From sequence record EF517044.1: 541 nt of DNA, one strand, 5' to 3'. Numbering within the stretch: position 1 is the first letter of the stretch; every line of letters starts with the position of its first letter. The position numbers and the translations under genes were made by a program. This document shows positions 2 through 541 of the stretch, piece after piece. Under the pieces are notes generated by a model. It ran no database searches, was not told where the DNA came from, and worked only from the letters and a program-made list of their open reading frames with translations. The stretch is from a phage.

Positions 2-292
2 ACTGTGGAGGCAGGACGAGATGAGATGGCTGTAGGCTCTCACGCTAAGGATTACAACCACAACTCTATCGGCGTCTGCCTTGTTGGTGGTATCGACGAT
101 AAAGGTAAGTTCGATGCTAACTTTACGCCAGTCCAAATGCAATCCCTTCGCTCACTGCTTGTCACACTGCTGGCTAAGTACGAAGGCGCTGTGCTTCGCG
201 CCCATCATGAGGTGGCGTCGAAGGCTTGCCCTTCGTTCGACCTTAAGCGTTGGTGGGAGAAGAACGAACTGGTCACTTCTGACCGTGGATGA
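2..292 (+). CDS. 3.5: T7-type lysozyme / N-acetylmuramoyl-L-alanine amidase, C-terminal ~96 codons; 5' end lies upstream of the window
   Basis: Open frame from window position 2 (codon ACT) to TGA at 290-292 translates to TVEAGRDEMAVGSHAKDYNHNSIGVCLVGGIDDKGKFDANFTPVQMQSLRSLLVTLLAKYEGAVLRAHHEVASKACPSFDLKRWWEKNELVTSDRG. From memory this is near-identical to the C-terminal part of T7 gp3.5, including the zinc-ligand/catalytic residues His122 (CAT 203-205), Lys128 (AAG 221-223) and Cys130 (TGC 227-229). The ORF track's start at position 5 is an internal GTG valine codon, not the true start. Not verified by database search. Confidence 0.9.
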   Translation, partial: TVEAGRDEMAVGSHAKDYNHNSIGVCLVGGIDDKGKFDANFTPVQMQSLRSLLVTLLAKYEGAVLRAHHEVASKACPSFDLKRWWEKNELVTSDRG

Positions 293-293
293 T

Positions 294-316
294 TAATTGA
301 ACTCACTAAAGGGAGA
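294..316 (+). promoter_or_regulatory. T7 RNA polymerase class II promoter (phi3.8-like), -17 to +6; predicted transcription start at G311
   Basis: TAATTGAACTCACTAAAGGGAGA at 294-316 aligns without gaps to the T7 promoter consensus TAATACGACTCACTATAGGGAGA, with 19 of 23 matches. Mismatches are at -13 (298), -12 (299), -11 (300) and -2 (309); the -10 to -3 core ACTCACT and the +1 to +6 GGGAGA are intact. Position immediately upstream of the gp3.8-like ORF fits T7 phi3.8. Confidence 0.85.
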
Positions 317-334
317 CCACAGCGATTTCCCTTT
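308..334 (+). other. 5' leader RNA stem-loop (GGGAGA...UUUCCC type) at the start of the phi3.8 transcript
   Basis: Inverted repeat seen directly: aaaggga (308-314) pairs with tcccttt (328-334). It extends by g315-t327 (G-U) and a316-t326, around a 9-nt loop ccacagcga (317-325). The part within the transcript (311-331) resembles the 5' GGGAGACC...GGUUUCCC hairpin found at the start of T7 late transcripts such as the phi10 leader. Confidence 0.5.
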
Positions 335-355: not shown

Positions 356-541
356 ATGCGCAAGTCTTATAAACAATTCTATAAGGCTCCGAGGAGGCAT
401 ATCCAAGTGTGGGAGGCAGCCAATGGGCCTATACCAAAAGGTTATTATATAGACCACATTGACGGTAATCCACTCAACGACGCCTTAGACAATCTCCGTC
501 TGACTCTCCCAAAAGAAAACTCATGGAACATGAAGACTCCA
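356..541 (+). CDS. 3.8: HNH endonuclease-like protein (T7 gp3.8 homolog), N-terminal 62 codons; 3' end lies beyond the window
   Basis: ATG at 356 preceded by a strong SD; frame is open to the window end (no stop, so not in the ORF track). Translation: MRKSYKQFYKAPRRHIQVWEAANGPIPKGYYIDHIDGNPLNDALDNLRLTLPKENSWNMKTP. It contains a DHIDGN...N...NLR...EN motif (codons 452-520) typical of HNH (HNH_3-type) nucleases and matches my recollection of T7 gp3.8. Confidence 0.85.
   Translation, partial: MRKSYKQFYKAPRRHIQVWEAANGPIPKGYYIDHIDGNPLNDALDNLRLTLPKENSWNMKTP

What the first reader, a model, noticed from the sequence alone, without database searches (positions are those of the whole stretch)
50..220. 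Three possible missense differences from canonical T7 lysozyme, one adjacent to catalytic Lys128
Against the T7 gp3.5 sequence as I recall it, the window encodes Asp for Gly71 (GAT 50-52), Val for Ala98 (GTC 131-133) and Ser for Pro127 (TCG 218-220). Each is a single-nucleotide change. Pro127 sits immediately N-terminal to Lys128, which is needed for amidase activity; the zinc ligands His122 and Cys130 are unchanged. T7 lysozyme also binds and inhibits T7 RNA polymerase, so substitutions could affect either function. The reference is from memory, so these may be natural variation in a T7 relative or a recall error.
Basis: partly seen in the sequence, partly recalled or inferred. Interest (0 to 1): 0.45.

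Follow-up and report, generated by a model that had tools for sequence, protein, structure and literature searches.

The report
Mutation-loaded T7 lysozyme gene copy
The window is phage T7's lysozyme gene region; its three amino-acid differences are real but sit at naturally variable positions, and they look like ordinary mutational load from a mutagenised laboratory T7 line, not a functional redesign.

Summary
The window matches T7 nt 10870-11410: the 3' two-thirds of gene 3.5 (lysozyme), the phi3.8 promoter and the start of gene 3.8. It has no gaps and 8 mismatches. The three missense changes are exactly as reported: G71D, A98V and P127S, each a single-base change. His122, Lys128 and Cys130 are intact.

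They are unlikely to matter much. Asp71 occurs in 35 of 120 T7-like lysozymes, and the sewage phage SYGE1 has the identical local sequence. Val98 occurs in 4 of 120. Residue 127 is variable (P/A/Q/T), and Ser-Lys-x-Cys-Pro occurs in 13 of 149 distant zinc amidases.

All 8 differences are transitions and 7 are G:C>A:T. Missense changes are as frequent as an unselected G:C>A:T mutation spectrum predicts. Natural T7 relatives show about 52% transitions and 19% non-synonymous changes. The Bull-laboratory T7 isolates K and P, which I recall as nitrosoguanidine-mutagenised, carry 8 and 7 G:C>A:T changes in the same 541 bp, at other sites.

Best reading: an independent, heavily mutagenised laboratory T7 lineage. 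It is absent from every collection searched. Structural mapping could not be done. Interest is low.

The parts
2..292 (+). 3' part of T7 gene 3.5 (lysozyme / N-acetylmuramoyl-L-alanine amidase / T7 RNAP inhibitor): residues 55-150 in no-Met numbering, plus the stop codon
   Evidence: 93 of 96 residues identical to the PDB chains 1LBA and 1ARO_L. Pfam Amidase_2 PF01510, 35.4 bits against a cutoff of 26. NC_001604 annotation.
50..52 (+). Codon GAT: Gly71Asp (G>A at window 51)
   Evidence: Asp is present at this column in 35 of 120 T7-like homologues and in natural phage SYGE1 with an identical local sequence.
113..115 (+). Codon GAT: synonymous Asp92 (GAC>GAT, C>T at window 115)
131..133 (+). 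Codon GTC: Ala98Val (C>T at window 132), second residue of the long helix
   Evidence: The column is highly variable, with Val in 4 of 120 close and 6 of 150 distant homologues. Helix 98-114 (with-Met numbering) in the AlphaFold model of homologue P0001.
218..220 (+). Codon TCG: Pro127Ser (C>T at window 218), immediately N-terminal to Lys128
   Evidence: Ser is absent in 120 close homologues (P95/A22/Q2/T1) but present in 13 of 149 distant zinc-amidase representatives as S-K-x-C-P.
290..292 (+). Gene 3.5 stop codon changed from TAA to TGA (A>G at window 291), the only non-G:C>A:T change
294..316 (+). T7 class II promoter phi3.8 (-17 to +6, with +1 at window 311), unchanged from T7
   Evidence: NC_001604 annotates the promoter at 11180, which is window 311. 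No differences in 294-316.
308..334 (+). Hairpin AAAGGGAGACC/ACAGC/GGUUUCCCUUU at the 5' end of the phi3.8 transcript; G>A at window 325 breaks the C-G pair next to the loop
   Evidence: Folding windows 311-370: wild type -20.0 kcal/mol (z -3.05) against the window -13.3 (z -0.72). In the 96-nt context: -30.4 against -23.7. Its identity with RNase III site R3.8 (T7 nt 11203) is from memory only.
356..541 (+). 5' part of T7 gene 3.8 (HNH endonuclease homologue), with a synonymous C>T at window 466 and Ala50Thr (G>A at window 503)
   Evidence: Pfam HNH_3 PF13392, 56.5 bits.

Best explanation
The window is bacteriophage T7 itself (gene 3.5 lysozyme, promoter phi3.8 and gene 3.8), from a lineage that accumulated dense G:C>A:T transitions with little purifying selection. 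That is the pattern seen in the Bull-laboratory T7 isolates K and P, which I recall as nitrosoguanidine-mutagenised and passaged through bottlenecks. G71D, A98V and P127S are three members of this random load. The enzyme keeps its zinc ligands and Lys128, and all three changes fall at positions that vary naturally in homologous amidases. The inferred outcome is a lysozyme that still works as a zinc amidase and, probably, as a T7 RNA polymerase inhibitor, with at most mild quantitative effects.

Shown: the identity of the locus, the differences, their spectrum, the lack of a selection signature, and the natural variability of the three columns.

Inferred: the mutagenesis origin and the near-neutrality of the changes.
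For: 1. The locus is T7: 533 of 541 bases identical with no gaps.
2. All 8 differences are transitions and 7 are G:C>A:T. Pooled differences of six natural Teseptimavirus relatives from T7 in the same region are 52% transitions and 34% G:C>A:T. Fisher tests against the window give p = 0.008 and p = 0.004.
3. Among the window's coding G:C>A:T changes, 4 are missense and 2 synonymous. The unselected expectation for G:C>A:T changes at these codons is 64% missense. Natural relatives show 19% non-synonymous changes (Fisher p = 0.035).
4. T7 isolates K/K115 and P/P82 (AY264775-AY264778) carry 8 and 7 changes in exactly these 541 bp. All are G:C>A:T, and the non-synonymous to synonymous counts are 4:4 and 4:1. 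The density and spectrum match the window, but no site is shared.
5. Five of the 7 mutated G residues have a 5' G, against a background of 25% (p = 0.013). From my own knowledge this fits the 5'-purine-G preference of MNNG.
6. Tolerance of the changes: Asp71 in 35 of 120 homologues and in SYGE1; Val98 in 4 of 120; position 127 variable, with Ser-Lys in 13 of 149 distant homologues.
7. His122, Lys128 and Cys130 are intact.
8. Published determinants of RNAP inhibition lie in the N-terminus, which is outside the window and was not examined. An R3S mutation in T7 lysozyme reduces inhibition, as cited in PMC10138996. K128Y abolishes amidase activity but keeps full RNAP inhibition (PMC5732464).
Against: - The source lineage was not found anywhere, so the mutagenesis history is inferred from 8 sites only.
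- One change (A>G at 291) is not G:C>A:T.
- The 5'-purine context is only 5 of 7 (p = 0.26 for purine), weaker than in lines K and P (14 of 15).
- Ser127 is not seen in any of the 120 close T7-like lysozymes, so an effect on the neighbouring Lys128 loop cannot be excluded.
- No coordinates were available, so distances to the zinc site and to the RNAP interface in 1LBA and 1ARO were not measured.
- The combined effect of three substitutions was not assessed.
Confidence: 0.68

Rival explanations
1. The window comes from a natural T7 variant or close relative, and the three substitutions are ordinary standing polymorphism.
For: G71D is shared, at the same nucleotide, with the sewage isolate SYGE1. 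All three positions vary among T7-like lysozymes. Transitions are common in close natural variants.
Against: Natural Teseptimavirus relatives differ from T7 here with 52% transitions and 81% synonymous changes. The window shows 100% transitions, 7 of 8 G:C>A:T, and 4 non-synonymous against 3 synonymous changes. None of the other 7 variants occurs in any of the 7 relatives examined. No record in the phage collection is closer than T7 itself.
Confidence: 0.12
2. The differences are not biological. They could be sequencing or assembly errors, or cytosine-deamination damage (heat, age or bisulfite-like treatment) in reads of ordinary T7.
For: G:C>A:T is also the signature of cytosine deamination. 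The window is short (541 bp), and neither its DNA nor its proteins occur in any collection searched.
Against: There are no indels, frameshifts or nonsense codons. Both reading frames and the stop position are kept. The same density and spectrum are seen in finished GenBank genomes of T7 isolates K and P. The enrichment for a 5' G next to the mutated G is, from my own knowledge, a known alkylation bias rather than a deamination bias.
Confidence: 0.1
3. One or more of the lysozyme substitutions, especially P127S next to Lys128, is adaptive or compensatory. It might tune amidase activity or lysis timing, or lysozyme-RNAP regulation, in an evolved phage.
For: Three of the four changes within the gene 3.5 codons are missense (the fifth change in the gene converts the stop codon). 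P127S lies in the His122-Cys130 catalytic loop, and Ser is not used by the 120 closest homologues. From my own knowledge, lysis timing and RNAP regulation are known targets of selection in evolved T7.
Against: A 3:1 missense to synonymous count is what unselected G:C>A:T mutation gives (64% missense expected). Gene 3.8 and the intergenic region are hit at the same density. The independent lines K and P carry other changes in this gene and none at these codons, so there is no parallelism. Position 127 is one of the most variable columns in the wider family.
Confidence: 0.08

Closest known systems
Bacteriophage T7 lysozyme gp3.5 (UniProt P00806; PDB 1LBA, 1ARO chain L)
   Same: 93 of 96 residues identical over residues 55-150. 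His122, Lys128 and Cys130 are present. It has the same genomic neighbours (phi3.8 promoter and gene 3.8) at identical spacing.
   Different: G71D, A98V, P127S, one synonymous change, and stop TAA>TGA. This triple-mutant sequence, built with a wild-type N-terminus, is not in the 15-billion-protein collection.
T7 isolates K, K115, P and P82 (GenBank AY264775-AY264778). From memory these are the nitrosoguanidine-mutagenised bottleneck lines of Bull et al. 2003, J Mol Evol 57:241. The paper was not held, and PMC4811365 cites it only for fixing random mutations through bottlenecks.
   Same: The same 541 bp carry 7-8 substitutions, all G:C>A:T, with about half or more non-synonymous. Density and spectrum match the window.
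   Different: No substituted site is shared, so the window is an independent lineage. The window has one A>G change and a weaker 5'-purine bias.
Escherichia phage vB_EcoP_SYGE1 lysozyme (MW883060), a natural Teseptimavirus
   Same: It carries Asp71 in the identical context GSHAKDYNHNSIG, through the same G>A nucleotide.
   Different: It is 93% identical in DNA over windows 1-344. It has Ala98 and Pro127, its other differences from T7 are mostly synonymous, and it lacks gene 3.8.
Engineered T7 lysozyme K128Y (LysY) and the pLysS/pLysE lysozyme cassettes
   Same: A laboratory-derived T7 gene 3.5 allele with a change in the 127-128 region. K128Y removes amidase activity but keeps RNAP inhibition (PMC5732464).
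   Different: The window keeps Lys128. It also extends into gene 3.8 beyond the pLysS insert (the insert end, T7 nt 11296, is from memory). The two plasmid records that match are only 97.7% identical and carry none of the variants as a set.

Membership tests
T7 lysozyme / Amidase_2 (PF01510) zinc N-acetylmuramoyl-L-alanine amidase | Significant sequence match to the family and to the solved T7 lysozyme | tested here: met
   PF01510 at 35.4 bits against a cutoff of 26. 1LBA and 1ARO_L at E = 6e-60, with 93 of 96 residues identical.
T7 lysozyme / Amidase_2 (PF01510) zinc N-acetylmuramoyl-L-alanine amidase | Zinc ligands His17, His122 and Cys130 | tested here: inconclusive
   His122 and Cys130 are present. 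His17 lies upstream of the window and cannot be seen.
T7 lysozyme / Amidase_2 (PF01510) zinc N-acetylmuramoyl-L-alanine amidase | Catalytic residues Tyr46 and Lys128 | tested here: inconclusive
   Lys128 is present, now preceded by Ser instead of Pro. Tyr46 is outside the window. The requirement for Tyr46 and Lys128 is taken from PMC8124813 and PMC5732464.
T7 lysozyme / Amidase_2 (PF01510) zinc N-acetylmuramoyl-L-alanine amidase | Amidase activity of this particular triple variant | not testable with these tools
   This needs an enzyme assay. The only evidence here is indirect, from natural variation at the three columns.
T7 RNA polymerase inhibitor function of gp3.5 | Intact RNAP-binding surface, including the N-terminal arm | not testable with these tools
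   The N-terminus (residues 1-54) is outside the window. No 1ARO coordinates were accessible. The literature points to the N-terminus: R3S reduces inhibition (PMC10138996).
Chemically mutagenised laboratory T7 lineage (like T7 isolates K and P, AY264775-AY264778) | Near-exclusive G:C>A:T transitions | tested here: met
   7 of 8 in the window, against 8 of 8 and 7 of 7 in lines K and P, and 34% in natural relatives.
Chemically mutagenised laboratory T7 lineage (like T7 isolates K and P, AY264775-AY264778) | High substitution density on an otherwise pure T7 backbone, with a neutral missense fraction | tested here: met
   1.5% divergence, the same as K and P in this window. Missense is 4 of 6 coding G:C>A:T changes against 64% expected.
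Chemically mutagenised laboratory T7 lineage (like T7 isolates K and P, AY264775-AY264778) | Descent from the published K or P lines (shared mutations) | tested here: not met
   None of the 8 sites is shared with K, K115, P or P82. If the window is a mutagenised line, it is an independent one.
Chemically mutagenised laboratory T7 lineage (like T7 isolates K and P, AY264775-AY264778) | MNNG sequence-context bias (5'-purine before the mutated G) | tested here: inconclusive
   5 of 7 sites have a 5' purine, all G. p = 0.013 for 5' G but p = 0.26 for purine. K and P together give 14 of 15.
Natural non-T7 Teseptimavirus species | Divergence dominated by synonymous changes, with mixed transitions and transversions | tested here: not met
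   Window: 8 transitions, 0 transversions, 4 non-synonymous and 3 synonymous. Natural relatives pooled: 67 transitions and 61 transversions, 22 non-synonymous and 95 synonymous.

The most novel reading that the evidence does not exclude
P127S, alone or together with G71D in the substrate-groove loop, reshapes the His122-Cys130 catalytic loop. On this reading it measurably changes amidase activity or lysis timing, and it was retained in this lineage as an adaptive or compensatory change rather than as neutral load.
Probability: 0.07. Interest if true: 0.35.

Novelty: already known. Interest (0 to 1): 0.12.

Why it matters
It matters little for biology. T7 lysozyme, its catalytic residues and its dual function are textbook knowledge, and the three substitutions fall at naturally variable positions.

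The useful outcome is provenance. The window should not be treated as wild-type T7 or as a new natural T7-like phage. It carries the signature of a mutagenised, weakly selected laboratory lineage, at about 1.5% divergence. If that density were uniform it would mean roughly 590 changes per genome. Any single substitution in it should therefore be presumed to be random load unless shown otherwise.

If the triple mutant were shown to be fully active, it would add a small data point on the mutational robustness of the loop next to Lys128.

Tried and rejected
**Finding the source lineage.**
- Megablast against 50,697 phage records: the best hits are T7 at 98.5%.
- Plasmids: only two pLys-type records, at 97.7%.
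- Exact 36-mer spanning variants 115 and 132: 0 hits in IMG/VR, JGI metagenomes and GTDB genomes.
- Exact 21-26-mers for each missense variant in IMG/VR, and P127S also in metagenomes: 0 hits. The wild-type control pattern hit only T7 itself, so these scans have little power.
- Exact-protein look-ups: the 96-aa fragment; full-length lysozyme and gp3.8 rebuilt with wild-type remainders. Neither is on record.
- Guessing neighbouring accessions GU071090 and GU071092 returned unrelated cyanophages.

**Testing one candidate source.** The heat-adaptation T7 experiment (PMC8923235) is rejected. It fixed only about 10 substitutions per genome, with none in gene 3.5 among those retrieved from its Table 1.

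**Structural mapping.** AlphaFold gave a good model of homologue P0001 (pLDDT 86.5). No coordinates are exposed to scripts, so only secondary-structure placement was possible. Distances to the zinc site and to the RNAP interface were not computed.

**Primary literature.** Cheng et al. 1994 (PMC43717), Jeruzalmi & Steitz 1998 (PMC1170743) and Springman et al. 2010 (PMC2815918) are not held. The docking paper PMC5445346 gave no interface residue list.

**Uniform random substitutions.** Substitutions drawn uniformly among base changes (for example introduced in silico) are rejected: the probability of 8 transitions out of 8 is 1.5e-4.

Full report
**What the window is.**
The 541-base window aligns end to end, without gaps, to bacteriophage T7 (NC_001604) nt 10870-11410 at 98.5% identity. 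It holds four features:
- the last 96 codons and the stop of gene 3.5 (lysozyme), at window 2-292;
- the class II promoter phi3.8, with +1 at window 311;
- a short leader;
- the first 62 codons of gene 3.8, an HNH-endonuclease homologue, from window 356.

Pfam confirms Amidase_2 and HNH_3 for the two reading frames.

**Checking the observation.**
The translated frame has exactly three differences from the solved T7 lysozyme chains 1LBA_A and 1ARO_L. A base-by-base comparison with NC_001604 gives:
- G>A at window 51: GGT>GAT, Gly71Asp.
- C>T at window 132: GCC>GTC, Ala98Val.
- C>T at window 218: CCG>TCG, Pro127Ser.

Residue numbers omit the initiator Met. His122, Lys128 and Cys130 are unchanged.

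**What else differs.**
The window has five more differences from T7:
- C>T at 115, synonymous.
- A>G at 291, gene 3.5 stop TAA>TGA.
- G>A at 325, in the phi3.8 leader.
- C>T at 466, synonymous in gene 3.8.
- G>A at 503, gp3.8 Ala50Thr.

All eight differences are transitions, and seven are G:C>A:T. About 100 T7 records in the phage collection all sit at 98.5% or lower. None of them therefore shares a variant without adding differences of its own.

**Natural variation or mutagenesis?**
I compared the same region in six natural Teseptimavirus relatives: YpP-R, C5, 13a, 3A_8767, WW2 and SYGE1. phiA1122 was also examined and is nearly the same as YpP-R. Pooled, their 128 differences from T7 are 52% transitions and 34% G:C>A:T, and only 19% of coding changes are non-synonymous. 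The window departs from this profile in three ways:
- transitions, Fisher p = 0.008;
- G:C>A:T changes, p = 0.004;
- non-synonymous fraction (4 of 7), p = 0.035.

I then enumerated every possible G:C>A:T change in the coding parts of the window. This gives 64% missense if there is no selection. The window shows 4 missense out of 6 coding G:C>A:T changes, which is the unselected expectation.

The collection also holds the T7 isolates K, K115, P and P82 (AY264775-AY264778). From my own knowledge these are the nitrosoguanidine-mutagenised, bottlenecked lines of Bull et al. [quoted passage not shown] That paper is not held; PMC4811365 cites it only for fixing random mutations by bottlenecks. In exactly these 541 bases K carries 8 changes and P carries 7. 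All of them are G:C>A:T, and the non-synonymous to synonymous counts are 4:4 and 4:1. The window has the same density and spectrum, but none of its sites coincides with theirs. It behaves like a further, independent line of the same kind.

Five of its seven mutated G residues have a 5' G (background 25%, p = 0.013). This is compatible with the 5'-purine-G bias of MNNG (my own knowledge), but weaker than in K and P, where 14 of 15 have a 5' purine.

Substitutions drawn uniformly among base changes are very unlikely: the probability of 8 transitions out of 8 is 1.5e-4.

**Are the three substitutions likely to matter?**
Evidence comes from two sets of homologues.

Among 120 T7-like lysozymes at 65-91% identity:
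- Column 71 is G68/D35/N15/E2.
- Column 98 is A76/Q17/E6/I5/S5/V4/D4 and others. Four sequences read FTPVQMQ.
- Column 127 is P95/A22/Q2/T1.
- His122, Lys128, Cys130, Asn73 and Tyr46 are invariant.

The sewage isolate SYGE1, a working coliphage, has GSHAKDYNHNSIG, identical to the window and produced by the same G>A.

An exhaustive HMMER search of 1.84 billion cluster representatives gave 150 more distant amidases at 36-52% identity:
- 149 keep His122 and Cys130, and 135 of those keep Lys128.
- The residue before Lys128 is one of the most variable columns: A42/N23/P16/K14/S13/R10/G9 and others.
- Thirteen read Ser-Lys-x-Cys-Pro.

So Pro127 is not a conserved neighbour of the catalytic lysine, and Ser is a naturally used alternative.

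In an AlphaFold model of the close homologue P0001 (pLDDT 86.5):
- Residue 71 lies in the loop before strand 77-82.
- Residue 98 is the second residue of the long helix 98-114.
- Residue 127 lies in the loop after His122 and His123.

These element numbers include the initiator Met. I could not obtain coordinates, so distances to the zinc and to the polymerase interface in 1ARO remain unmeasured.

The literature available here says three things:
- Tyr46 is required for amidase activity (PMC8124813).
- K128Y abolishes amidase activity but keeps full RNAP inhibition (PMC5732464).
- The N-terminus, which is outside this window, is a determinant of RNAP inhibition: R3S weakens it (PMC10138996).

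**Most likely explanation.**
The window is T7 from a heavily mutagenised, weakly selected laboratory lineage. G71D, A98V and P127S are random members of that load. The protein most likely still works as a zinc amidase and as an RNAP inhibitor, with at most quantitative effects. The locus identity, the differences, the spectrum, the neutral missense ratio and the variability of the columns are shown. The mutagen history and the near-neutrality are inferred. I put this at about 0.68.

The rivals are:
- a natural T7 variant (0.12);
- a damage or sequencing artefact (0.10);
- adaptive change in lysozyme (0.08).

Against adaptation: the missense ratio is neutral, neighbouring non-lysozyme sequence is hit at the same density, and lines K and P show no parallel changes.

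**Provenance searches that failed.**
The lineage is absent from the phage and plasmid collections, IMG/VR, JGI metagenomes, GTDB genomes and the 15-billion-protein collection. The exact-DNA scans have little power, because the wild-type control found only T7 itself.

**Verdict.**
The functional reading is weak. The real story is the mutational signature of the whole window. This is a known gene carrying ordinary, probably tolerated mutations, and interest is low.

Noticed in passing
window 308-334 (variant at 325): G>A at window 325 (T7 nt 11194, +15 of the phi3.8 transcript) breaks the C-G pair next to the loop of the hairpin AAAGGGAGACC/ACAGC/GGUUUCCCUUU. The predicted stability of windows 311-370 falls from -20.0 (z -3.05) to -13.3 kcal/mol (z -0.72). 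From memory, this hairpin is the 5' stem-loop of the phi3.8 mRNA and coincides with RNase III site R3.8 (nt 11203 = window 334). A possible effect on processing or mRNA stability was not tested.
   Followed up: partly
window 290-292: The gene 3.5 stop codon is TGA instead of T7's TAA (A>G at 291). This is the only change that is not G:C>A:T. It lies 3 nt upstream of position -17 of the phi3.8 promoter, so the promoter core (294-316) is untouched.
   Followed up: partly
window 356-541 (variants at 466 and 503): Gene 3.8 (HNH_3 domain, 56.5 bits) carries a synonymous C>T and Ala50Thr (DNLRLALPKEN > DNLRLTLPKEN) inside the HNH motif region. The conservation of that column was not examined.
   Followed up: no
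L003 (AY264774), aligned to window 191-193: The T7 record AY264774 reads GGT (Gly) where NC_001604, the window, and isolates K and P read GTG (Val118). This is a two-base GT/TG swap that looks like a sequence conflict between reference records. The PDB chains have Val.
   Followed up: partly
L002 and L006 (AY264777 and AY264778, T7 isolates P and P82), aligned to window 311 and 315: Line P carries G>A at +1 and +5 of the phi3.8 promoter's initiation region (GGGAGA > AGGAAA). That should weaken this promoter. The window keeps the wild-type promoter.
   Followed up: no
(search of protein cluster representatives): The exhaustive search of 50%-identity cluster representatives returned no hit better than E = 1.3e-20 and 50% identity. 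Yet T7-like lysozymes at 65-91% identity are abundant in the 90%-clustered collection. The T7-like cluster seems to be represented by a distant or partial member: P0235 is 84% identical, but only over 37 residues.
   Followed up: no
(records MZ375233-MZ375292): Dozens of 'Mutant Escherichia phage T7 clone' genomes (36.5-39.9 kb) match the window only up to about position 384. There they join directly to the primase/helicase gene, so gene 3.8 is deleted or truncated in many of these engineered or evolved T7 clones. This fits gene 3.8 being dispensable.
   Followed up: no
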